A stretch of 36,173 nt of DNA, taken from the IMG/VR virus record IMGVR_UViG_2565956709_000006; one strand, given 5' to 3'. This DNA is from a virus (lineage: Duplodnaviria; Heunggongvirae; Uroviricota; Caudoviricetes). The notes beneath the pieces were generated by a model. The model worked only from the letters and a program-made list of their open reading frames with translations, did no database searches and was not told the DNA's origin. Shown here piece by piece: positions 240 to 13,710 of this stretch (the stretch's first letter is position 1; the number at the start of each line of letters is the position of its first letter). The translations under genes were made by a program, and so were the position numbers.

Positions 240-1430
240 ATGATATTTACACGATTGAGATTTATCAATTTGTACGCTTTTGAGGATGCAGAGCTTAACC
301 TGTCCTATCCAAGGAAACCTGTAAACATGCCTCTTGATGGGGAGTTTTTGGCTGGACGGCCTAAATTTTACTATAAAAAAGTCTGTATCATAACGGGGGG
401 AAATGCTTCAGGCAAGACGTCACTAGGGCGAATTCTTTGTGGAATTCAGGTGTTTCTAAGAACCAAAGAGTTGCGGAGTAATCTGCGAGTGAATAATAAA
501 AATAATGATGCTTCGTTTGAAGTAGACTTTGCTACGGAGGAACATTTTCATCATCGTTTGTATGTACGCTTTGCTACCAGTGAAGGCGGAGCGCACATAA
601 TCAAAGAAATTAAATATGGTTTTGTTCAAATAGCATTAAATGATTCTTGCTATAAAACCACAGAAAAACTGAATCAACTCTTTTCTGGAAGGGCCCCAGG
701 AGATACAGAATATTTTTTTCAGGAACTAGCTACTGATAGCGAACCAGTTGTATTGGAGTTTTTCAAGCAACTTAAGTTTTTTGGTGGATGGTACTATTTG
801 TTGTCTGAAACTAAAGAAAGTACCACTGCAATTTCAGGAATGAATAAAAATATTCTTGAAAGGATAATTCGCACTTTCGATTCAAGTATTATAGGAGTTA
901 CCGAGATGCTGGAGTCTGAAAGTGACGGGGATGAAAATAAATCATCTGCGGTTTATCTGATTAAATTTAAAAACTCTGATTCTCTTGTCGTTACCAGTAA
1001 AGGTGAAATAATTAACTCAGACCGTCTTTCTCGAGGAACATACGAGGCAGTGACGGTAGCGCATTTTATAAGCGCTATTATCTCTGATTGTGAAAGACTA
1101 GGTAAGCAATCTCTAATACCATCAATGACTTATTTTCTTGACGAGAAATTGGCTTATACACATTCAGAGTTAGAGCGTATGATTGTGGCGCTGATTATAT
1201 CTAATTTGAAAGAAAATACTCAGTTTTTCTATACAACGCATAACATGGATATTTTTGAGTTGGATCTGCCTGTTCACTCGTTCATTTTTATTAAAAAAAC
1301 GAAAGACTATTCGGAGTTTGTTGAAGCAAATTCAGTTGTTAAAAAAAATGACCGTAGCATGCGAAACGCTGTTGAGAGAGATGTCTTTGGTGTCTTACCT
1401 GACACATCATTAGTATCGGAGCTACTCTGA
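240..1430 (+). CDS. P-loop ATPase, ABC/SMC-like (OLD/AAA_15/AAA_21-type); candidate defence ATPase
   Basis: 396-aa ORF. Walker A GGNASGKTS at aa 53-61 (nt 396..422). N-terminal F-x-x-L-x-x-x-N-x-x-F-x-D pattern typical of RecF/SMC-like ABC ATPases. Signature-like LSRGTYE, Walker B-like TYFLDE, and H-loop-like TTHN near the C-terminus. About 38 percent GC, well below the phage structural genes. The stop overlaps the start of the next ORF (ATGA). Confidence 0.75.
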   Translation: MIFTRLRFINLYAFEDAELNLSYPRKPVNMPLDGEFLAGRPKFYYKKVCIITGGNASGKTSLGRILCGIQVFLRTKELRSNLRVNNKNNDASFEVDFATEEHFHHRLYVRFATSEGGAHIIKEIKYGFVQIALNDSCYKTTEKLNQLFSGRAPGDTEYFFQELATDSEPVVLEFFKQLKFFGGWYYLLSETKESTTAISGMNKNILERIIRTFDSSIIGVTEMLESESDGDENKSSAVYLIKFKNSDSLVVTSKGEIINSDRLSRGTYEAVTVAHFISAIISDCERLGKQSLIPSMTYFLDEKLAYTHSELERMIVALIISNLKENTQFFYTTHNMDIFELDLPVHSFIFIKKTKDYSEFVEANSVVKKNDRSMRNAVERDVFGVLPDTSLVSELL

Positions 1431-1963
1431 TGGCGGGGTTGTCTAAAATAAGAATAATTTTTGTCGAAGGTGAAACAGAAAACTCTCTTTTTCAGAAGAT
1501 GAAACAACAGAGAGTTATTGATGCCAAATCAATTGTAAAAAGAAACTTTTGGCAAGAGAGCATAAGAAATTATGCGATTACTATTCCGAAGGGAAGTGAT
1601 ATACTAATTGTCTTTGATAGTGATGAAGTGGAGCAATCTGCAAGATTCATTGAAAATGTAAAGTTCCTTAAAAACAGAGGGCATAAAGTTTATCTTTTGC
1701 AGCAGAAAAGAAATTTTGAGGAGGAGTTGGCCTGGTGTTGCGGAATTCCTGTAAAAAAACTAATTGCTGGGTTCTGTGCAAAAAAAACATCGGGTATAAA
1801 TGATTTCAAGAGAGATTTTATTGCTTGTAACAATCAACTTTCAAAGTTACTGAAAATGGGCATGCAGGAAACTAAGTGGTTTACAAGAGATTTACATACT
1901 GTATTGGAGCCTGTTGCAAGTTTTAAGTCATCTTTTTCTAAACATTTCAGGTTAACAAGATGA
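1430..1963 (+). CDS. small TOPRIM-like protein (OLD-TOPRIM / DUF4276 / RloB-like), probable nuclease partner of the ATPase
   Basis: 177-aa ORF translationally coupled to the upstream ATPase (TGATG overlap). N-terminal RIIFVEGETE (aa 8-17) and ILIVFDSDE (aa 59-67) match the conserved glutamate and DxD acidic motifs of TOPRIM domains. AT-rich. Family assignment is from motif recognition only. Confidence 0.6.
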   Translation: MAGLSKIRIIFVEGETENSLFQKMKQQRVIDAKSIVKRNFWQESIRNYAITIPKGSDILIVFDSDEVEQSARFIENVKFLKNRGHKVYLLQQKRNFEEELAWCCGIPVKKLIAGFCAKKTSGINDFKRDFIACNNQLSKLLKMGMQETKWFTRDLHTVLEPVASFKSSFSKHFRLTR

Positions 1964-2098
1964 TTTATTTTCTTTTTTGTTCAGTTGATTGTTTTTGTTT
2001 GTAAAATGTCTTGATTTTTTGCCAATAAACTGTTTCAATCCAGCTACGCTTCGCAAAGCTATACCGCGAGGCGAATAGCAGACATGGACACCTGAAAG

Positions 2099-2122
2099 AA
2101 CCCGCTTTATGCGGGTTTTTTT
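2099..2122 (+). terminator. Rho-independent terminator downstream of the ATPase/TOPRIM pair
   Basis: Hairpin CCCGC-TTTAT-GCGGG (2101..2115) followed by a run of 7 T. Confidence 0.6.
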
Positions 2123-2245
2123 ATGCCTGAAAAACGGCACAGAACATTAAACGCGCTGGTAGTTGTGAATACTGGTCTTTCAGCTTGCTGGCTTTTTCGA
2201 CAAGAGGTATTGGTATGTCACGTTAACCGGAAAAGGGAAAAAGGC

Positions 2246-2443
2246 ATGCTAAAACAGCAGGATATGACCGAAACCGCCAGAGTGGTGTTTAATGAATTAA
2301 GCGTCACCGAACCGGCGACCGTCGGGGAAATTGCGCAGAATACTTACCTTTCACGCGAACGCTGCCAGTTAATACTGACTCAGCTTGTTATGGCGGGTCT
2401 GGCAGATTATCAGTTCGGTTGTTACAGACGCCTTCCGCAGTGA
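2246..2443 (+). CDS. small hypothetical protein, possible HTH/winged-helix DNA-binding protein
   Basis: 65-aa ORF (internal start of track ORF 2123..2443) preceded by a purine-rich RBS (GGAAAAGGGAAAAAGGC). The segment ATVGEIAQNTYLSRERCQLILTQL resembles a helix-turn-helix. The track start at 2123 sits inside the terminator T-run and lacks an RBS. Confidence 0.35.
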   Translation: MLKQQDMTETARVVFNELSVTEPATVGEIAQNTYLSRERCQLILTQLVMAGLADYQFGCYRRLPQ

Positions 2444-2593
2444 AGGCTTTTTAATTTGTGGTAATGGGCGGCTGGTGGGTGTTAGCGGCACCTGCCAGCC
2501 ATCTGCTCATGCGTTGGGGTCACAAGCAAACCTCAGGCCCATCTGCTTTGCGCAAAAGCGGTATGAGCCTATCAGAGAAGTGCTTATTGATCT

Positions 2594-3643
2594 ATGGCTA
2601 ATACTGTAAAAATATCCAGTTGTGAGTTAATCAACGCTGATTGCCTGGAATTTATCCAGACCTTACCGGAAAACTCTGTCGATCTTATAGTCACAGACCC
2701 GCCATACTTTAAAGTGAAACCCGAGGGCTGGGATAACCAGTGGAAGGGCGACGATGATTACCTGAAGTGGCTGGACCAGTGTCTGGCGCAGTTCTGGCGG
2801 GTGCTGAAACCTGTCGGAAGTCTTTACCTGTTCTGTGGTCATCGCCTGGCATCTGATATCGAAATCATGATGCGTGAACGCTTCAGTGTGCTGAACCATA
2901 TTATCTGGGCGAAGCCGTCCGGACGCTGGAACGGATGCAACAAGGAAAGCCTGCGGGCGTATTTCCCCGCCACAGAGCGCATTCTGTTCGCGGAACATTA
3001 TCAGGGGCCGTATCGTCCGAAAGATGCCGGGTATGCGGCGAAGGGCAGTGCACTGAAACAGCATGTGATGGCCCCGCTGATTTCTTACTTTCGTGATGCG
3101 CGCGCGGCCCTGGGGATAACGGCAAAACAGATTGCAGATGCCACAGGAAAGAAAAACATGGTGTCGCACTGGTTCAGTGCCAGTCAGTGGCAGCTACCGA
3201 ACGAAAGCGATTATCTGAAATTACAGTCGCTGTTTGCCCGGGTGGCAGAAGAGAAACATCAGCGCGGTGAACTGGAAAAGCCCCACCACCAGCTGGTGGA
3301 TACGTATACGTCACTGAACCGGCAGTATGTGGAGCTGCAGAGTGAATATAAGCATCTGCGGCGGTATTTTGGTGTGACGGCGCAGGTGCCGTACACGGAT
3401 GTGTGGACACATAAACCGGTGCAGTTCTATCCCGGGAAACATCCGTGCGAAAAACCGGCAGAAATGCTGCAGCAGATAATCAGCGCAAGCAGTCGTCCGG
3501 GAGACCTGGTTGCAGATTTTTTTATGGGCTCAGGTTCAACGGTAAAAGCTGCACTGGCGCTCGGGCGTCGTGCGATTGGCGTTGAACTGGAGACCGGACG
3601 TTTTGAGCAGACAGTCAGGGAAGTTCAGGATTTAATCGTTTGA
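2594..3643 (+). CDS. DNA methyltransferase (N6-adenine type, beta-class), orphan, no cognate restriction gene
   Basis: 349-aa ORF. DPPY catalytic motif near the N-terminus (VTDPPYF) and FxGSGST AdoMet-binding motif near the C-terminus (ADFFMGSGSTV); motif IV before motif I is the beta-class order. No adjacent endonuclease ORF. Confidence 0.85.
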   Translation: MANTVKISSCELINADCLEFIQTLPENSVDLIVTDPPYFKVKPEGWDNQWKGDDDYLKWLDQCLAQFWRVLKPVGSLYLFCGHRLASDIEIMMRERFSVLNHIIWAKPSGRWNGCNKESLRAYFPATERILFAEHYQGPYRPKDAGYAAKGSALKQHVMAPLISYFRDARAALGITAKQIADATGKKNMVSHWFSASQWQLPNESDYLKLQSLFARVAEEKHQRGELEKPHHQLVDTYTSLNRQYVELQSEYKHLRRYFGVTAQVPYTDVWTHKPVQFYPGKHPCEKPAEMLQQIISASSRPGDLVADFFMGSGSTVKAALALGRRAIGVELETGRFEQTVREVQDLIV

Positions 3644-4569: not shown

Positions 4570-4829
4570 TTAGTTTCCTTGTTTATGCCTTGCTGGTGAT
4601 GTTCTGAAAAGTATAAATGATATTTTTGATTGTAAACCATAGAGCAGAATTATTTTTCTGATGTTGTTTATTGTTTATTTAAATGCAGGGTGGTTTATAT
4701 CTCGTCTTGTAGTTTATCCATGCATATCTGCTTGATGATGAGGTTTTTATTTAAGGTATGGTTTTGTGTTTTTTCTGTATTACATGTCAGGTATTTTAAA
4801 GAATCATTTTTCAGATGGTGGAAAGAACC

Positions 4830-6683
4830 ATGGCATTTAAACACTATGATGTTGTCAGGGCGGCGTCGCCGTCAGATCTTGCGGAAAAGCTGACACATAA
4901 ACTGAAAGAGGGCTGGCAGCCGTTTGGTAGTCCGGTGGCCATAACCCCTTATACCCTGATGCAGGCGATTGCAGCAGAAGGTGATGTGGTCGTCAGTGGT
5001 GCAACTGAGCCGGAGTGGTACTACGTCATCGTACTGGCCGGGCAATCCAATGCCATGGCTTACGGTGAAGGGCTTCCGCTTCCGGATTCTTACGATGCGC
5101 CCCACCCACGCATTAAGCAACTGGCCCGTCGCAACACAGTGACTCCCGGTGGTAAAGCATGCGCATTTAACGACATCATTCCGGCAGACCACTGCCTGCA
5201 TGATGTTCAGGATATGAGCGCACTGAATCATCCGAAGGCAGACCTGAGCAAAGGGCAGTACGGCTGTGTCGGCCAGGGCTTACATATTGCCAAAAAACTG
5301 CTTCCGTATATCCCGAATAACGCGGGGATCCTGCTGGTACCATGCTGTCGTGGTGGTTCGGCATTCACCCAGGGCGCGGAGGGGACATTCAGTGCGGACA
5401 CGGGGGCCAGCCAGGATTCGGCACGCTGGGGTGTGGGTAAACCGTTATATCAGGACCTGATCGCACGCACCAAAGCGGCATTACAGAAGAACCCGAAAAA
5501 TGTGTTGCTGGCGGTGTGCTGGATGCAGGGCGAATTTGACATGAGCGCTGCCACCTACGCACAGCAACCGGACCTGTTCACGGCCATGCTGAAGCAGTTC
5601 CGTACTGACCTTTCCGGATTTAACGCGCAGTGCCATGGCGGCAGTGCTGCAGTTGTACCGTGGATTTGTGGCGACACGACGTATTACTGGAAAAACACAT
5701 ACGGCACACAGTATGACTCCGTCTACGGCGCATACAAAAACAGGGAGAGCGACAACGTTTTCTTTGTGCCGTTCATGACCGACGGTAACGGCAACAACAC
5801 GCCCACCAACTTACCGGCAGAAGACCCGGATATTGCTGATGCAGGTTATTACGGCGCGCAATCCCGTAGTAATGGTAATTGGGTATCGTCAAACCGCCCG
5901 ACACATTTCAGTTCATGGGCGCGCAGGAGCATTATTCCGGATCGTATGGCAACCGCTATTCTGAACGCAGCCGGGCGCACCTCAGCCTTCATCAGTGGTA
6001 AGGCACCGGAAATCAAACCCTCGCCCGGCGTCGACACGCCATCGGGGCCGTCTGAAGATGCATCCGTACGCACAATCTCCCTGTTGCCGACAGCCGGAGA
6101 GGCTGCTGCGCAGGGCTGGACCATTAAGGACGGCGGAATTCAGTTGTCGGGTGGTGTATTTAAGATCACCAAGCAGAGCAATAAAACTTGGTCCCTGATG
6201 CATCCGGTGGATGACGCAGTCTCCCTGCTGACACGGGGTGGCAGACTGAGCTGTAAGTTTCGACTGTCAGGCGCACTGACCAACAACCAGTTCGGTCTGG
6301 GAATTTATCTGTATACCGATGTAGCGTTACCTGACGTCGTGGCGATGACCGGGACTGGTAACCCGTTCCTGATGTCGTTCTTCACCCAGACCACAGACGG
6401 CAAACTGAATCTGATGCATCACAGGAAAGCAGGAAACACAAAGTTGGGCGAGTTCGGGAATTACAGTAACGACTGGCAGACGCTGGAGCTGGTGTTCACC
6501 GCCGGCAGTGCCACGGTTACTCCGAAACTGAATGGAGTGGCTGGCCCGGCATTCCAGGTCATAAAAGACAGTCTGACACTGGGGCTGAATGCGCTGACGC
6601 TGACGGATATTACCAAAAATGCAGCGTATGGCGTTGAGATAGAAAGTCTGGTGCTGGAGATAAATGCACCAGCATCATCATAA
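4830..6683 (+). CDS. nanS-p: NanS-p-type sialate O-acetylesterase (SGNH/SASA hydrolase with N-terminal DUF1737-like domain)
   Basis: Long ORF (track start 4815; the ATG at 4830 has the better RBS, GGTGGA). N-terminus AFKHYDVV..., SASA/SGNH esterase motif VLAGQSNAMAYGE. Same position (after the tRNA cluster, before the holin) as the esterase gene of Stx-converting phages. Assigned from recalled homology. Confidence 0.7.
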   Translation: MAFKHYDVVRAASPSDLAEKLTHKLKEGWQPFGSPVAITPYTLMQAIAAEGDVVVSGATEPEWYYVIVLAGQSNAMAYGEGLPLPDSYDAPHPRIKQLARRNTVTPGGKACAFNDIIPADHCLHDVQDMSALNHPKADLSKGQYGCVGQGLHIAKKLLPYIPNNAGILLVPCCRGGSAFTQGAEGTFSADTGASQDSARWGVGKPLYQDLIARTKAALQKNPKNVLLAVCWMQGEFDMSAATYAQQPDLFTAMLKQFRTDLSGFNAQCHGGSAAVVPWICGDTTYYWKNTYGTQYDSVYGAYKNRESDNVFFVPFMTDGNGNNTPTNLPAEDPDIADAGYYGAQSRSNGNWVSSNRPTHFSSWARRSIIPDRMATAILNAAGRTSAFISGKAPEIKPSPGVDTPSGPSEDASVRTISLLPTAGEAAAQGWTIKDGGIQLSGGVFKITKQSNKTWSLMHPVDDAVSLLTRGGRLSCKFRLSGALTNNQFGLGIYLYTDVALPDVVAMTGTGNPFLMSFFTQTTDGKLNLMHHRKAGNTKLGEFGNYSNDWQTLELVFTAGSATVTPKLNGVAGPAFQVIKDSLTLGLNALTLTDITKNAAYGVEIESLVLEINAPASS

Positions 6684-6769
6684 AAAGTGAGCCAGTCAAA
6701 TGGAAGGTATCGTTAAACTCACCGGTAGTGTCAGTGGGTCGTCTGAGATGCCTGCATGAGTTATCAGAG

Positions 6770-6798
6770 CCATCAGTACTTAACTGGTGGCTTTTTTT
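6770..6798 (+). terminator. Rho-independent terminator between nanS-p and the holin gene
   Basis: 8-bp stem (CCATCAGT/ACTGGTGG with one G-T wobble) followed by CTTTTTTT. Confidence 0.5.
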
Positions 6799-6833: not shown

Positions 6834-7049
6834 ATGTACCAGATGGAAAAAATCACAACAGGTGTGTCATACACCACGTCAGCGGTGGGAACGGGCTACT
6901 GGTTCCTGCAGTTGCTGGACAGGGTTTCCCCGTCTCAGTGGGCGGCAATAGGCGTGCTGGGGAGTCTGCTGTTTGGGCTGCTGACATATCTGACTAACCT
7001 GTATTTCAAAATCAGAGAGGACCGTCGTAAGGCTGCACGGGGAGAGTAA
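6834..7049 (+). CDS. S: holin (class I lambdoid S-type, dual-start motif)
   Basis: Internal start of track ORF 6756..7049 at MYQMEKITT (two Met three codons apart, typical holin/antiholin dual start) with RBS GGGAGACGGGG. Two hydrophobic segments and a charged C-terminus [11 protein letters not shown]. About 71 aa. Confidence 0.8.
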
Positions 7050-7053
7050 TTCA

Positions 7054-7398
7054 ATGACTCAAAACTATGAACTGATTGTGAAAGGGATCCGCAATTTTGA
7101 GAATAAAGTTACGGTAACTTTAGCGTTACGGGACAAAAAACGCTTTGACGGTGAAATTTTTGACCTGGACATCTCGCTGGACCGTGTTGAAGGTGCCGCG
7201 CTGGAGTTTTATGAGGCAGCAGCCAGAAGGAGCATCAGACAGGTCTTCCTGGATGTTGCTGCCGGGTTATGTGAAGGGGATGAGCAGTCGCCGGAAAAGC
7301 GCCCCGTAATTTTAGAGGCGCAGGATGTGTTGATAACCTACAGAGGAAAACTACCGGGAATAATTACGGGTTCTCTGAAGAGTCCGCCGAAATGGTAA
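7054..7398 (+). CDS. hypothetical protein located between holin and endolysin
   Basis: 114-aa ORF starting 5 nt after the holin stop. No catalytic motifs recognised. Small unknown ORFs occupy this position in some E. coli cryptic prophages, but identity is unconfirmed. Confidence 0.5.
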   Translation: MTQNYELIVKGIRNFENKVTVTLALRDKKRFDGEIFDLDISLDRVEGAALEFYEAAARRSIRQVFLDVAAGLCEGDEQSPEKRPVILEAQDVLITYRGKLPGIITGSLKSPPKW

Positions 7399-7636
7399 TT
7401 TTACCAGCATATTTTTCATCCAGTAATACAGCAAGCCGCCTGAAAGAGTCTTGTTGTTCCTGAGACCATTTGGGATTGCATGATTCAAACTGGATTGATG
7501 CCAGCGTTGATTGCATCTGTTCCCTTGGAATTGAGAATGCCAGATATGAGAAGGCGACGGTAAGGGTATTCACGTCTTCCCGAAGCCTGGAAATGCTGTC
7601 GAGCAACTCCTGTAGAGAAATGGTGTTATTGTCCAT
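7364..7636 (-). CDS. hypothetical protein, convergent with and 3'-overlapping the preceding ORF
   Basis: 90-aa minus-strand ORF with a well-spaced RBS (GAGGAT, 5 nt, ATG). Its 3' end overlaps 7054..7398 by 35 nt. Protein-like composition, no recognised domain. Confidence 0.45.
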   Translation of the reverse strand: MDNNTISLQELLDSISRLREDVNTLTVAFSYLAFSIPREQMQSTLASIQFESCNPKWSQEQQDSFRRLAVLLDEKYAGKITISADSSENP

Positions 7637-7741
7637 AAATAATCCTCATGATTGTATTGACCTGTTAGCAGCCTGAGGCAACAGGCTGGAACTGATAAAC
7701 ATATCCAGGGCTCAGAAACCGATAAATCCTGATAAATATCC

Positions 7742-8275
7742 ATGAACGCAAAAATCAGATACGGCCTGTCGGCTGCCGTTCTGGCGCTGATTGCCGCTGG
7801 TGCGCCTGCGCCTGACATTCTCGACCAGTTTCTGGATGAAAAGGAAGGTAACCACACCACGGCATACCGTGATGGCGCGGGTATCTGGACCATCTGCCGC
7901 GGTGCCATCCTGGTGGATGGCAAACCTGTCGTTCCGGGCATGAAGTTGTCGAAGGAAAAATGCGACCGGGTTAACGCCATTGAGCGTGATAAGGCGCTGG
8001 CATGGGTGGAGAAAAACATCAAAGTGCCATTGAGCGAACCCCAGAAAGCGGGGATCGCGTCATTCTGTCCGTACAACATTGGTCCCGGTAAGTGTTTCCC
8101 GTCGACGTTTTATAAACGAATTAATGCAGGTGATCGCAGGGGAGCGTGTGAGGCGATTCGCTGGTGGATTAAGGACGGTGGCAGAGACTGCCGTATTCGT
8201 TCAAACAACTGCTACGGTCAGGTATCCCGTCGTGACCAGGAGAGCGCGCTGGCGTGCTGGGGTATCGACAGATAA
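7742..8275 (+). CDS. R: endolysin, lysozyme-like with N-terminal SAR signal-anchor-release domain
   Basis: 177-aa ORF. N-terminal hydrophobic Ala/Gly-rich segment LSAAVLALIAAGAPA typical of SAR endolysins, followed by a lysozyme-like domain with the catalytic region TAYRDGAGIWTICRG. Lies in the lysis cassette. Confidence 0.8.
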   Translation: MNAKIRYGLSAAVLALIAAGAPAPDILDQFLDEKEGNHTTAYRDGAGIWTICRGAILVDGKPVVPGMKLSKEKCDRVNAIERDKALAWVEKNIKVPLSEPQKAGIASFCPYNIGPGKCFPSTFYKRINAGDRRGACEAIRWWIKDGGRDCRIRSNNCYGQVSRRDQESALACWGIDR

Positions 8276-8365
8276 GCAGAATATTTTGCTGAAAAATGCG
8301 GTTTGCTTACACGGACGGATAACACGAAATCCTGCGAACTGACAAAAACTAAGTGAATAAAAGTA

Positions 8366-8399
8366 AAAACCCCGTTTGTTGGCTGCAAGCGGGGTTTTG
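8366..8399 (+). terminator. Rho-independent terminator-like hairpin between R and Rz
   Basis: AAAACCCCG ... CGGGGTTTT: 5-bp GC stem flanked by an A-run and a T-run; could act in either direction. Confidence 0.5.
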
Positions 8400-8473
8400 T
8401 GTTTCCTGACTCTGGAAAAGTCAAAGGAGAAAGTGTGTTTGATTTTAGCAAACTGATTCGGGAGATTCGAGTG

Positions 8474-8572
8474 ATGGCTGAAAAATTATCCACCTGGAAG
8501 TTCATTCTTATCTGGCTGGTGTTTGTGATTATGGCCTCCGGTTATTTCATCGGTCAGATACGCTGGTGGTGA
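8474..8572 (+). CDS. small hydrophobic peptide (32 aa), candidate membrane protein
   Basis: ATG at 8474 (in-frame GTG at 8471 and 8435, RBS-like AAAGGAGA at 8424..8431). Encodes MAEKLSTWKFILIWLVFVIMASGYFIGQIRWW with one predicted TM helix. Its stop lies 1 nt before the Rz start. Too short for the ORF track. Confidence 0.3.
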   Translation: MAEKLSTWKFILIWLVFVIMASGYFIGQIRWW

Positions 8573-8573
8573 A

Positions 8574-9041
8574 ATGAACCGCGTACTGTGCGTGGTCATC
8601 ATTGCCCTGCTGGTGGCCTGTGGTGCGCTTAGTCTGGGGCTGAATCATTACCGTGATAACGCCATAACCTACAAAGAGCAGCGCGATAAAAAAGTCAGTG
8701 AGCTGGAGCAGGCAAATGCAACCATTACTGATATGCAGCAGCGCCAGCGTGATGTTGCTGCACTTGATGCCAGATACTCGAGGGAATTAGCCGATGCGAG
8801 AGCTGAAAATGAAACTCTGCGCGCTGACGTTGCCGCTGGTCGTAAGCGCCTGCGGATCAACGCCACCTGCCCCGGTACCGTGCGTGAAGCCCCCACCACC
8901 TCCGGCGTGGATAATGCAACCGGCCCCCGACTGGCAGACACCGCTGAACGGGATTATTTCACTCTCAGAGAGCGGTTGATGCTGATGCAGAAGCAGCTGG
9001 AAGTGGCGCAGGAATATATCCGCACTCAGTGCCTGAAATAA
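8574..9041 (+). CDS. Rz: i-spanin Rz
   Basis: 155-aa ORF with N-terminal TM anchor (VLCVVIIALLVACGAL), coiled-coil-rich periplasmic domain, and the embedded Rz1 ORF in the +1 frame. Confidence 0.85.
   Translation: MNRVLCVVIIALLVACGALSLGLNHYRDNAITYKEQRDKKVSELEQANATITDMQQRQRDVAALDARYSRELADARAENETLRADVAAGRKRLRINATCPGTVREAPTTSGVDNATGPRLADTAERDYFTLRERLMLMQKQLEVAQEYIRTQCLK
8794..8979 (+). CDS. Rz1: o-spanin Rz1 (lipoprotein embedded in Rz)
   Basis: 61-aa ORF wholly inside Rz in another frame. Lipobox LVVSAC and proline-rich CVKPPPPPAWIMQPAPDWQTPLNGIIS, almost identical to lambda Rz1. Confidence 0.85.
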   Translation: MRELKMKLCALTLPLVVSACGSTPPAPVPCVKPPPPPAWIMQPAPDWQTPLNGIISLSESG

Positions 9042-12121: not shown

Positions 12122-13710
12122 AACGAACGCCTGTCCTGATTGATGTGAACGGCGTTCCGCTTCGTGAGAGTCTCAGCTACAACGGGGGCGGTGCAGGATT
12201 TGGCGGGCAAATGGCTGAGTGGTTGCCACCGGCGCAGAGTGCCGATGCGGCCCTGCTACCCGCGTTGCGTCTGGGGAATGCCCGGGCAGATGATCTGGTG
12301 CGCAATAACGGAATAGCGGCTAATGCGGTGGCTCTGCATAAGGATCACATTGTCGGGCATATGTTTCTGATCAGCTACCGTCCGAACTGGCGCTGGCTGG
12401 GGATGCGGGAGACCGCAGCAAAAAGCTTTGTCGATGAGGTGGAGGCGGCCTGGTCGGAATACGCCGAAGGGATGTTTGGCGAGATCGACGTGGAAGGAAA
12501 ACGCACGTTCACGGAATTTATCCGTGAAGGTGTGGGCGTTCATGCGTTTAACGGCGAAATCTTTGTGCAGCCGGTCTGGGATACGGAAACCACGCAGTTA
12601 TTCCGTACGCGTTTTAAAGCCGTGAGTCCGAAACGGGTGGACACGCCTGGACACGGTATGGGGAACCGTTTTCTGCGGGCCGGTGTGGAGGTCGATCGAT
12701 ATGGCCGTGCCGTCGCGTACCATATTTGTGAGGACGATTTTCCGTTCTCTGGTAGTGGACGATGGGAACGGATCCCGCGTGAACTTCCCACCGGGCGTCC
12801 GGCCATGCTGCATATTTTCGAGCCGGTGGAGGACGGGCAGACCCGTGGGGCTAATCAGTTTTACAGCGTCATGGAACGGCTGAAGATGCTCGATTCCCTG
12901 CAGGCAACACAGCTTCAGTCGGCCATAGTGAAGGCGATGTATGCAGCGACGATTGAAAGTGAACTTGATACCGAAAAGGCCTTTGAATATATCGCCGGTG
13001 CGCCGCAGGGGCAGAAGGATAATCCGCTTATTAATATTCTGGATAAGTTCTCCACCTGGTATGACACGAATAGCGTGACGCTGGGCGGTGTCAAAATTCC
13101 GCACCTTTTCCCCGGTGATGATCTGAAACTTCAGACCGCGCAGGATTCAGACAATGGATTTTCGGCGCTTGAACAGGCGCTGCTGCGGTATATCGCCGCC
13201 GGTCTTGGCGTTTCCTACGAACAGTTGTCCCGTGATTACTCGAAGGTCAGTTATTCAAGTGCCCGCGCATCCGCCAATGAGTCGTGGCGCTATTTTATGG
13301 GGCGGCGAAAATTTATTGCGTCCCGGCTGGCCACGCAGATGTTTTCCTGCTGGCTGGAAGAGGCACTTCTTCGGGGGATTATTCGTCCGCCACGGGCACG
13401 TTTTGATTTTTATCAGGCGCGATCAGCCTGGTCACGGGCTGAGTGGATTGGAGCCGGAAGAATGGCCATTGACGGGCTCAAGGAGGTTCAGGAATCAGTG
13501 ATGCGCATTGAGGCCGGACTGAGCACGTATGAGAAAGAGCTGGCGCTGATGGGCGAGGATTATCAGGACATTTTCCGCCAGCAGGTCAGGGAATCTGCAG
13601 AGCGGGAAAAAGCCGGACTCTCACGTCCGGTGTGGATAGCGCAGGCGTATCAGCAGCAGATAGCGGAGAGTCGCAGGCCGGAAGAGGAGACAACACCACG
13701 TGAGACGTAA
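12118..13710 (+). CDS. B: portal protein
   Basis: 530-aa ORF in the lambda gene order after W; size and sequence match lambda gpB. Confidence 0.9.
   Translation: MKRTPVLIDVNGVPLRESLSYNGGGAGFGGQMAEWLPPAQSADAALLPALRLGNARADDLVRNNGIAANAVALHKDHIVGHMFLISYRPNWRWLGMRETAAKSFVDEVEAAWSEYAEGMFGEIDVEGKRTFTEFIREGVGVHAFNGEIFVQPVWDTETTQLFRTRFKAVSPKRVDTPGHGMGNRFLRAGVEVDRYGRAVAYHICEDDFPFSGSGRWERIPRELPTGRPAMLHIFEPVEDGQTRGANQFYSVMERLKMLDSLQATQLQSAIVKAMYAATIESELDTEKAFEYIAGAPQGQKDNPLINILDKFSTWYDTNSVTLGGVKIPHLFPGDDLKLQTAQDSDNGFSALEQALLRYIAAGLGVSYEQLSRDYSKVSYSSARASANESWRYFMGRRKFIASRLATQMFSCWLEEALLRGIIRPPRARFDFYQARSAWSRAEWIGAGRMAIDGLKEVQESVMRIEAGLSTYEKELALMGEDYQDIFRQQVRESAEREKAGLSRPVWIAQAYQQQIAESRRPEEETTPRET

What the first reader, a model, noticed from the sequence alone, without database searches (positions are those of the whole stretch)
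7054..7636. Convergent, 3'-overlapping pair of unknown genes inserted between holin and endolysin
In the canonical lambdoid lysis cassette S is followed directly by R. Here a 114-aa plus-strand ORF and a 90-aa minus-strand ORF sit between them, converging and overlapping by 35 nt at their 3' ends. The minus-strand ORF has a well-spaced RBS and is transcribed against the late operon. Neither has recognisable catalytic motifs. An antisense-oriented gene inside the lysis cassette could modulate lysis timing or be a lysogeny-expressed moron.
Basis: partly seen in the sequence, partly recalled or inferred. Interest (0 to 1): 0.5.

Follow-up and report, generated by a model that had tools for sequence, protein, structure and literature searches.

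The report
Antisense moron cassette beside ydfR
Both ORFs are real genes: the forward one is YdfR, the usual filler of this type of prophage lysis cassette, and the reverse one is the cargo of a small mobile 'moron' cassette of the kind first described in phage HK022. What the reverse-strand protein does is still unknown.

Summary
A 114-aa + ORF (7054-7398) and a 90-aa - ORF (7364-7636) converge with a 35-nt overlap, between an S21-type holin and the endolysin R.

The + ORF is YdfR/DUF1327. It is the normal occupant of this position and matches DNA in 4304 of 5426 complete E. coli genomes. K-12 YdfR was recently reported to bind RNase E.

The - ORF (phrog_2411) is a real gene. It stays open in all diverged homologues, with dN/dS 0.2-0.4. 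It lies on a ~320-bp indel that starts at the ydfR stop, and is present in 1117 of 5426 genomes.

Relatives of the - ORF sit antisense in other late-operon positions: tail genes, after Rz, and before a different holin. Those relatives, and unrelated fillers of the same ydfR-R slot, share a conserved upstream leader. The leader has a -10-like box CCTGGWTATGTT and a hairpin supported by covariation, and it is absent from Rfam. It precedes at least 16 unrelated small cargo ORFs. One is the HK022 gene 22/23 moron.

The window carries a truncated leader that my covariance model does not score.

Verdict: a new member of a known kind, an antisense moron. There is no evidence for a role in lysis timing, and the protein's function is unresolved.

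The parts
6834..7049 (+). S21-type class II holin (71 aa), the upstream neighbour
   Evidence: PF04971 E 9e-33; phrog_9876/phrog_20 holin
7054..7398 (+). ydfR, YdfR/DUF1327 family late gene (114 aa). It has an N-terminal beta3-alpha domain (codons 1-72) and a low-confidence C-terminal tail ending ...PGIITGSLKSPPKW
   Evidence: PF07041 E 7.3e-43; phrog_406 E 4e-68; AF2 model E5-14, E18-27, E33-43, H50-72, with the tail at pLDDT below 50; the start lies 4 nt after the holin stop, so it is transcribed with the late operon
7364..7636 (-). orf90, the cargo gene of the moron cassette. It encodes an acidic (pI 4.5) 10-kDa protein predicted to form four helices. Family phrog_2411
   Evidence: phrog_2411 E 1e-58 over 90 of 90 positions; dN/dS 0.20-0.41 with an open frame in all variants; 62 homologues; AF2 H8-18, H22-35, H38-52, H59-77, pLDDT 67.5
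7364..7398 (.). 35-nt convergent 3' overlap. The last codons of orf90 (DSSENP) are read antisense to the conserved YdfR tail (GSLKSPPKW)
   Evidence: The same 35-nt overlap is annotated in L001-L003, L007, L008 and L011
7643..7647 (-). Shine-Dalgarno GAGGA of orf90, 6 nt before the ATG
   Evidence: Read from the sequence; conserved in 8 of 8 loci
7664..7688 (-). Leader remnant: a 7-bp hairpin CAGCCUG/CAGGCUG (7669-7688) overlapping GGCUGCUAAC (7664-7673). This corresponds to the P1 arms UCAGCC/GGCUGA of the full leader. The inner hairpin P2 is missing here
   Evidence: The hairpin is not significant on its own (z -1.5), shows no covariation among E. coli variants and is not scored by model R1 (3.7 bits)
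7698..7710 (-). Box CCCTGGATATGTT, with TATGTT as a -10-like hexamer at 7698-7703. It is the presumed promoter of the cassette and the only copy in the window
   Evidence: Exact matches lie at -73 in all E. coli orf90 loci and at -92 to -98 in L102, L021 and L009. The box is also upstream of unrelated cargo ORFs. The consensus scan found no promoter here because no hexamer with at least 4 of 6 matches to -35 is present
7391..7707 (.). Approximate extent of the indel (cassette) relative to phages that have ydfR but no orf90
   Evidence: Alignment with vB_EcoS-733R4 (L004): homology breaks at ydfR codons 112-113 and resumes at gaaaccgataaatcc upstream of R
7742..8275 (+). Endolysin R (177 aa, lysozyme with a hydrophobic N-terminus), the downstream neighbour
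   Evidence: PF00959 E 5.5e-24; phrog_7 endolysin

Best explanation
The locus holds two independent things. (1) ydfR is an ordinary late gene of S21-type lysis cassettes, co-transcribed with S and R. (2) The 3' end of ydfR is a recombination hot spot that carries interchangeable antisense 'moron' cassettes. In this window the cassette (about 7391-7710, minus strand) consists of a promoter-like box (CCCTGGATATGTT, -10 = TATGTT), a roughly 55-60-nt leader with one hairpin, a strong SD and orf90. orf90 encodes a small acidic four-helix cytoplasmic protein of family phrog_2411.

Inferred mechanism: the cassette is its own transcription unit and is read against the late operon, so orf90 can be made in the lysogen while the late genes are silent. 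No terminator separates the converging genes, so the orf90 transcript should run antisense into ydfR and S. After induction, Q-modified late transcription should run through the cassette, occlude its promoter and cover its mRNA with antisense RNA. That would switch orf90 off during lytic growth. The protein has no enzyme-like features and most likely acts by binding another protein, as an accessory function such as exclusion, defence or host modulation. It is unlikely to be a lysis factor.

Shown: gene reality, indel status, family membership, the shared leader and its hairpin in relatives, and the antisense placement in many contexts. Inferred: promoter activity, expression in lysogeny, transcriptional interference, and the protein's role.
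For: YdfR identity. YdfR ubiquity: 101 phage records and 4304 of 5426 E. coli genomes with a match.

orf90 is a real gene.

Indel with defined breakpoints. The cassette is present in 1117 of 5426 genomes. Its GC is 0.45, against 0.53-0.55 for S and R.

The same slot holds unrelated antisense ORFs: orf86 in 311 genomes, plus orf104, orf98 and a 210-233-aa ORF. hhalign finds no relation between orf90 and orf86. Those fillers all carry the same upstream box and hairpin.

phrog_2411 homologues sit antisense in other late-operon sites: between gpM and gpL, after Rz, and before a different holin in Citrobacter.

Leader: hairpin P2 is 96-98% paired. Compensatory changes occur in 6 of 8 pairs (9 sequences) and 5 of 8 pairs (24 sequences), with 0 of 500 shuffles reaching the observed score. 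It has many G-U pairs, which fit only the cargo strand. Model R1 recovers independent leaders at E 3e-17 to 3e-4.

At least 16 unrelated cargo families follow the leader. In 63 of 68 contexts the next long ORF downstream is on the opposite strand, and 58 of 78 have a convergent ORF abutting or overlapping the cargo stop.

In HK022 the leader precedes gp23, which is annotated 'moron gene product' and converges on moron gp22 between tail genes I and J. The moron definition and the precedent of expression in lysogeny come from PMC3594210. PMC7067206 states that genes antisense to lytic genes are typical accessory loci.
Against: There are no expression data, so the promoter is an inference. The consensus scan found no sigma-70 site upstream of orf90 and no conserved -35 was seen.

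The window's own leader lacks hairpin P2 and model R1 does not recognise it (3.7 bits, E 0.9 in 601 nt). Its homology to the full leader rests on three things: the exact 13-nt box, the flanking UCCAGCC/GGCUGCUAAC, and the fact that the nearest non-E. coli orthologues (L021, L009, L010) carry the full leader.

No terminator-like site was found for the cassette, so one defining moron feature is missing.

The structure model is of only moderate confidence (pLDDT 67.5) and fold searches gave only generic helical hits. The 'binds a protein' role is therefore a guess.

The cargo ORFs were picked by a heuristic: the longest ATG ORF with an SD-like site.
Confidence: 0.65

Rival explanations
1. YdfR and Orf90 form a functional two-protein module. 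In this reading the conserved C-terminal tail of the late protein YdfR (...ITGSLKxPPxW) binds and neutralises Orf90 at induction, or Orf90 neutralises leaky YdfR in the lysogen. The convergent overlap would keep the two genes linked.
For: The pairing persists across Escherichia and Citrobacter although the N-terminal part of the partner changes completely. Examples are the 238-aa, 63-aa and 61-aa partners that end KITGSLRVPMKL, KITGSLRAPIKL and RIIGSLITPPEL. In the tail, Gly-Ser-Leu codons differ synonymously between loci, and dN/dS for codons 78-113 is 0.55. AF2 predicts the tail to be unstructured on its own, as expected for a binding peptide. Distant homologues also converge on a short operon-strand ORF with 7-20 nt of overlap.
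Against: Each gene occurs without the other. ydfR with an intact tail but no orf90 is found in BP-4795 and 733R4, which are deposited as phage genomes. orf90 is intact next to a ydfR remnant carrying stops in L012-L014. The same YdfR tail is followed by unrelated cargo genes. ydfR and orf90 alleles recombine freely (L095, L003). An HMM of the tails does not significantly detect the partner ORFs of distant cassettes (best E 0.13).
Confidence: 0.15
2. The main functional product is the antisense RNA rather than the protein. A transcript from the cassette promoter would run into ydfR and S and silence leaky or incoming lysis-gene mRNA, as the STnc6030 asRNA of prophage BTP1 excludes superinfecting phage. 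In this reading the ORF is secondary.
For: The leader is better conserved than the cargo and is shared by unrelated ORFs. There is no terminator between the converging genes. Precedent: PMC7067206.
Against: The orf90 frame is kept open, with a strong SD, across 24-100% identity. dN/dS is about 0.3. Cargo ORFs of 65-210 aa are open in every cluster. The cassette occurs at sites with quite different antisense targets, such as tail genes. A shared RNA target is therefore unlikely.
Confidence: 0.1
3. One reading: the antisense gene modulates lysis timing, for example as an antiholin-like or endolysin-regulating factor.
For: Only its position between S and R.
Against: Homologues lie in tail operons, after Rz, before unrelated holins and even on chromosomes between dinI and bssS. 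The protein has no predicted membrane segment or signal peptide (sequence inspection; AF2 model). Phages lacking the cassette have the same S, ydfR and R. The gene points against the late transcript that makes the lysis proteins.
Confidence: 0.05
4. orf90 is a spurious ORF on the antisense strand of a variable spacer.
For: There is no Pfam or NCBIfam family. No consensus promoter was found. The antisense frame that shares wobble positions gives a similar dN/dS.
Against: There are zero stops in all variants and in distant homologues, whereas every other frame has stops in most variants. 20 cluster representatives were found among 1.84 billion proteins, with a conserved motif. The SD is conserved. 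The PHROG family matches over its full length.
Confidence: 0.03

Closest known systems
HK022 genes 22/23, 'moron gene products' between tail genes I and J (moron concept: Juhala et al. 2000, as summarised in PMC3594210)
   Same: A sequence matching the full form of the leader (BLAST E 1e-10) lies directly upstream of gp23. gp23 is antisense to the late operon. It converges on and overlaps a short operon-strand ORF, gp22, by 81 nt. The pair is an insertion between conserved late genes.
   Different: The cargo protein is unrelated to Orf90. The site is the tail operon, not the lysis cassette. The window's leader is a truncated version without hairpin P2. The function of HK022 gp22/gp23 is also unknown as far as I could find.
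HK97 gp15 moron (superinfection exclusion; Cumby et al. 2012, via PMC3594210)
   Same: A small accessory protein encoded by an insertion inside a late operon. It is expressed from the prophage and benefits the lysogen. This is the functional class I consider most likely for Orf90.
   Different: gp15 is an inner-membrane protein of the YebO family, whereas Orf90 is predicted to be soluble and helical. No sequence relation exists. I did not examine gp15's orientation or leader.
YdfR of the E. coli K-12 Qin prophage (P76160)
   Same: Same Pfam family (DUF1327) and same position between holin and lysozyme. K-12 YdfR binds the catalytic half of RNase E through its first 72 residues and co-purifies with RNA (PMC13232886). 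The window protein shares that N-terminal domain.
   Different: K-12 YdfR is 103 aa with a helical C-terminus. The window protein is 114 aa with the ...ITGSLKSPPKW tail. RNase E binding was not tested for this variant.
Lambda bor (my own knowledge) and other accessory genes encoded antisense to prophage lytic genes (PMC7067206)
   Same: A small gene next to the lysis genes that points against the late operon. It is expected to be expressed in the lysogen (for the general rule).
   Different: Bor is a lipoprotein located after Rz, whereas Orf90 is cytoplasmic and lies between ydfR and R. There is no sequence relation.
STnc6030 antisense RNA of Salmonella prophage BTP1 (PMC7067206)
   Same: A transcript made in the lysogen, antisense to late genes and able to act on incoming phage mRNA. 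This is a possible side activity of the orf90 transcript, which has no terminator before ydfR.
   Different: STnc6030 is non-coding, whereas the cassette here carries a conserved ORF with an SD.

Membership tests
Moron (Juhala et al. 2000, as defined in PMC3594210) | Extra DNA relative to otherwise collinear related phages | tested here: met
   A ~320-bp indel relative to vB_EcoS-733R4 and BP-4795, with breakpoints at the ydfR stop and about 35 nt before R
Moron (Juhala et al. 2000, as defined in PMC3594210) | Own promoter | tested here: inconclusive
   The conserved box CCCTGGATATGTT (-10-like TATGTT) sits at the same distance in many cassettes. No consensus sigma-70 site was found by the scan and no conserved -35 was seen. 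No transcript data are available
Moron (Juhala et al. 2000, as defined in PMC3594210) | Own terminator | tested here: not met
   No terminator-like hairpin lies on the minus strand between orf90 and S. The genes overlap by 35 nt
Moron (Juhala et al. 2000, as defined in PMC3594210) | Base composition differs from neighbours | tested here: met
   GC is 0.45 for the non-overlapping part of orf90, against 0.53 (S), 0.55 (R) and 0.52 (window). The difference is modest
Moron (Juhala et al. 2000, as defined in PMC3594210) | Expressed from the repressed prophage | not testable with these tools
   Needs strand-specific RNA-seq or proteomics of a lysogen
YdfR / DUF1327 (PF07041) | Profile match above Pfam's gathering score | tested here: met
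   145.2 bits against a cut-off of 25, E 7.3e-43, profile positions 1-91 of 93
YdfR / DUF1327 (PF07041) | Binding to the RNase E N-terminal half (a property reported for K-12 YdfR) | not testable with these tools
   Reported in PMC13232886. Only the shared N-terminal domain was shown here
phrog_2411 (orf90 family) | Full-length profile match | tested here: met
   E 1.1e-58, positions 1-90 of 90. Distant homologues also match at E 1e-10 to 1e-19
   Exact copy at 7698-7710, at -73 from the ATG
   The window has only a 7-bp hairpin made from the P1-like arms. R1 scores it at 3.7 bits, E 0.93. The full form is present in the orthologous Citrobacter loci
Toxin-antitoxin or known defence system | Match to a known toxin, antitoxin or defence protein profile | tested here: not met
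   No PADLOC hit for either protein or for the alternative slot fillers. No Pfam or NCBIfam hit for orf90
Toxin-antitoxin or known defence system | Obligate co-occurrence of the two genes | tested here: not met
   ydfR occurs without orf90, and orf90 occurs with a degraded ydfR
Known RNA families (Rfam 15) | Match of the region or of the leader to any covariance model | tested here: not met
   No hit at E up to 1 over 7054-7741 or over the leaders of 12 related loci

The most novel reading that the evidence does not exclude
The shared leader (box, 5'-terminal UCAGCC, covarying hairpin P2, and the GGCUGAUUA loop of P3 that can pair with the 5' end) may define a previously undescribed, Enterobacteriaceae-wide system of mobile gene cassettes in temperate phages. 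In this reading it is a portable promoter plus a structured, possibly pseudoknotted 5' UTR. It would put dozens of unrelated small proteins under one common control: on in lysogeny and shut off by convergent late transcription, or controlled by an RNA-binding factor. The cargo would be a reservoir of exclusion, defence or anti-defence proteins. Orf90 and the YdfR tail would be one such cargo and partner pair.
Probability: 0.2. Interest if true: 0.7.

Novelty: new member of a known kind. Interest (0 to 1): 0.4.

Why it matters
The pair of ORFs is less unusual than it first looks, because one of the two is the standard YdfR filler.

The minus-strand gene is carried by about a fifth of complete E. 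coli genomes, including B-strain laboratory hosts. It belongs to a cassette family with a conserved, structured leader that is absent from Rfam. That leader sits in front of many unrelated small ORFs at antisense positions in the late operons of lambdoid phages, including HK022, ES18 and SPN3UB.

If the leader is a common regulatory handle, it gives a simple sequence tag for finding lysogeny-expressed accessory genes in enterobacterial prophages. It would also make their regulation testable with one reporter construct.

The work also marks the 3' end of ydfR (after ...ITGSLKxPP) as a hot spot for cassette exchange. In addition, it links a gene with a recent biochemical lead (YdfR binding to RNase E) to a polymorphic neighbourhood.

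Tried and rejected

2. Sequence profiles against the PDB found nothing below E 0.5.

4. I tested whether the alternative slot filler orf86 is a distant homologue of orf90. hhalign gave a probability of 0.3%, so this was rejected. The annotator's 'DUF1823' label for orf86 is below threshold (E 0.023).

5. I tested whether the partner ORFs of distant cassettes share the YdfR tail. The best E was 0.13, so this is not established.

6. The 5'-UTR hairpin showed no covariation among the E. coli orf90 variants.

7. The 14-mer GATGGCTGATTAAC was too unspecific as a probe. Only 3 of 120 hits had a phrog_2411 ORF.

8. An integron attC-like reading of the hairpin was considered and dropped, because the core-site consensus does not fit on inspection.

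9. A sigma-54 reading of the box was likewise dropped, because there is no GG-N10-GC.

10. Literature searches for ybl58, the WP accessions, DUF1327 and HK022 gp23/srb gave nothing on function.

Full report
**Observation**

The window contains ORF 7054-7398 (+, 114 aa) and ORF 7364-7636 (-, 90 aa). They converge and share 35 nt. The minus ORF has GAGGA 6 nt before its ATG. The neighbours are an S21-type class II holin (6834-7049), a lysozyme R (7742-8275) and Rz (8574-9041). The description is accurate.

**The plus ORF**

It is a YdfR/DUF1327 protein (PF07041, E 7e-43; phrog_406). It starts 4 nt after the holin stop, so it belongs to the late transcript.

YdfR is not an unusual insertion.
- It lies between holin and lysozyme in 101 phage records.
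- It holds the same position in B-strain Rac, BP-4795 and mEp460.
- DNA of this ydfR type matches in 4304 of 5426 complete E. coli genomes, 2174 of them over at least 80% of its length.

The only functional data I found are for K-12 YdfR. It binds the catalytic half of RNase E through its first 72 residues and co-purifies with RNA (PMC13232886).

The family is modular. A conserved core ends in ...PG(I/R)ITGSLKxPP. After that motif, variants stop at 114-116 aa or continue into unrelated extensions of 161-268 aa.

**The minus ORF is a gene**

- It matches phrog_2411 over its full length (E 1e-58), and annotators call it 'hypothetical protein'.
- Among five variants at 81-89% DNA identity, its frame has no stop. 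Pairwise dN/dS is 0.20-0.41 and changes concentrate at third positions.
- The antisense frame that shares wobble positions shows a similar ratio but has stops in 4 of 5 variants. The open frame is therefore the deciding criterion.
- The family is small. There are 62 clusters at 90% identity and 20 representatives among 1.84 billion proteins. Members go down to 24% identity and keep a common motif.
- The protein is acidic (pI 4.5) and is predicted to form four helices with a disordered tail (pLDDT 67.5).

**It is an insertion at a hot spot**

Phage vB_EcoS-733R4 and BP-4795 have S, ydfR (with the same tail) and R, but no orf90. Homology to the window breaks at ydfR codons 112-113 and resumes about 35 nt before R. 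The cassette is present in 1117 of 5426 genomes, in two allele groups at over 99% and about 86% identity. It is present in only 3 of 50,697 phage records.

The same slot holds other antisense ORFs:
- an 86-aa ORF with a 53-nt overlap, in 311 genomes;
- a 104-aa ORF in Stx2 phage 86;
- a 98-aa ORF in phage Evi;
- a 210-233-aa ORF in Stx1_499.

orf86 and orf90 are unrelated by profile comparison. ydfR and orf90 alleles recombine independently.

**The cassette occurs elsewhere**

phrog_2411 homologues lie on the strand opposite to the surrounding late genes in several other places:
- between the gpM-like and gpL-like tail genes;
- between Rz and the terminase region;
- in Citrobacter, upstream of an unrelated holin/endolysin/Rz set and next to genes I read as HicAB-like from their sequence.

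A few homologues are chromosomal, for example between dinI and bssS.

In the phage contexts the gene converges on a short ORF of the operon strand, with 7-20 nt of overlap. In Escherichia, Citrobacter and the unassigned contig L010, these partner ORFs share the YdfR-type tail (KITGSLRAPIKL and similar) despite different N-termini. Synonymous codon differences show that the constraint acts on the protein. For more distant cassettes the partner similarity is not significant (E 0.13).

The partnership is not obligate. orf90 persists next to a ydfR remnant carrying stops in L012-L014.

**A shared leader**

The 75-100 nt upstream of phrog_2411 genes are better conserved than the proteins. In order, the elements are:
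- a box CCTGGWTATGTT;
- UUCAGCC;
- an 8-bp hairpin, P2;
- a second hairpin, P3, whose loop GGCUGAUUA is complementary to UCAGCC (P1);
- the SD and the ATG.

The same leader precedes the unrelated slot fillers orf86, orf104, orf98 and the 210-233-aa ORF.

A pattern scan of IMG/VR, stopped at its 120-locus limit, returned 44 distinct leaders in front of at least 16 unrelated cargo ORF clusters of 65-210 aa.

P2 is well supported:
- In 9 sequences, 95.8% of cells are paired and 6 of 8 pairs show compensatory changes.
- In 24 sequences, 97.9% of cells are paired and 5 of 8 pairs show compensatory changes.
- 0 of 500 shuffles reach the observed covariation score, and slid controls collapse.
- There are many G-U pairs, which would be mismatches on the other strand.

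P1 is invariant and therefore uninformative. P3 is weaker, at 86% paired. No Rfam family matches.

A covariance model built from the IMG/VR leaders finds independent copies in Evi, Stx2-86, the Citrobacter loci and others (E 3e-17 to 3e-4).

The leader also occurs in named phages. In HK022 it lies directly upstream of gp23, annotated 'moron gene product'. gp23 is antisense to tail genes I and J and overlaps moron gp22 by 81 nt. SPN3UB shows the same arrangement next to the tape-measure gene.

Across 78 distinct contexts the next long ORF downstream is on the opposite strand in 63 of 68 cases. In 58 contexts a convergent ORF ends within 60 nt of the cargo stop, and 36 of those overlap it.

**The window's version**

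The window keeps the box exactly (7698-7710, the only copy in the window). It also keeps a 7-bp hairpin built from the P1-like arms (7669-7688) and GGCUGCUAAC (7664-7673). It lacks P2, and the model does not score it (3.7 bits).

All E. coli orf90 alleles have this short form. The closest non-E. coli orthologues have the full form. I read the short form as a deletion derivative, which is an inference.

**Interpretation**

The pair is a standard late gene (ydfR) plus an antisense moron of the HK022 22/23 type. The convergent overlap is a general property of these cassettes, not a special feature of this lysis cassette.

The covarying hairpin on the cargo strand argues that relatives are transcribed from upstream of the hairpin. 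That is consistent with TATGTT acting as the -10. However, no -35 is conserved and the consensus scan was negative. Expression in lysogeny follows from the moron paradigm (PMC3594210; PMC7067206) and is not shown here.

With no terminator between the genes, mutual transcriptional and antisense interference with the late operon is expected.

What Orf90 does remains open. I favour an accessory protein-binding role such as exclusion, defence or host modulation. I give low weight to a lysis-timing role, because the family is not tied to lysis genes. The YdfR-tail/Orf90 partnership is an attractive but unproven alternative.

**Novelty**

The kind (moron) has been known since 2000, and both genes are already annotated as hypothetical or YdfR. 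Three results appear to be undescribed, within the limits of the literature I could search:
- the assignment of orf90 to a leader-defined cassette family;
- the structured leader itself, which is not in Rfam;
- the identification of the ydfR 3' end as an exchange hot spot.

Noticed in passing
window 8276-8573: The R-Rz gap holds a strong terminator-like hairpin (8366-8398, 14 pairs followed by a T run). After it comes a 57-aa + ORF (8399-8572) that matches phrog_6632 (E 1e-29) and has a hydrophobic C-terminal half. This is another variable filler inside the lysis cassette.
   Followed up: no
window 7693-7708 and 7729-7742: There is an imperfect direct repeat: ctgataaacatatcca and ctgataaatatcca. 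One copy contains the cassette's box and the other overlaps the start codon of R. It could be a short-homology anchor for cassette exchange or a trace of the insertion.
   Followed up: no
window 6766-6794: A terminator-like hairpin (12 pairs, T run) lies on the late strand, 40 nt before the holin start. The late transcript must read through it.
   Followed up: no
window 4815-6683: A 622-aa protein with DUF1737, a SASA sialate O-acetylesterase domain and DUF6645. This is the esterase type annotated as YjhS family upstream of the lysis genes in Stx phages. No stx gene was looked for in the window.
   Followed up: no
L113 3001-3279 and L114 (relatives of P0077): A distant phrog_2411 homologue (28% identity) is a chromosomal gene between dinI and bssS. 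It has the same orientation as dinI and no phage genes nearby. Another homologue (P0072, L105) lies next to a heavy-metal P-type ATPase.
   Followed up: partly
L003 (phiSTEC1575-Stx2k) 1285-3303: In this phage, S21-type holin, ydfR and orf90 are followed by a second, unrelated lysis set (two holins and an M15 peptidase) instead of R. The phage therefore carries two holin types.
   Followed up: no
L012-L014 (Logan contigs): Here orf90 is intact but ydfR is reduced to a remnant of about 175 bp carrying stop codons. A ParDE-like toxin-antitoxin pair sits right after the lysozyme.
   Followed up: partly
P0125, P0190, P0138 (YdfR homologues): Several YdfR variants have unusual architectures. One has an internal duplication of the N-domain (196 aa). 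One carries a C-terminal extension with a PF06147 hit (200 aa). One runs on into an Rz1-like sequence (133 aa). This suggests frequent rearrangement at this gene, or assembly or frameshift artefacts.
   Followed up: no
L019 641-827 (phage Evi) and L021 8123-8239: Phage Evi has a strong Rfam match to the sRNA STnc100 (119.9 bits) upstream of its lysis genes. The Citrobacter locus has a weak match to the same family.
   Followed up: no
window 13397-13446 (-): A weak hit of the leader model R1 (15.2 bits, E 0.06) inside the head-gene region. It is probably a chance match.
   Followed up: no
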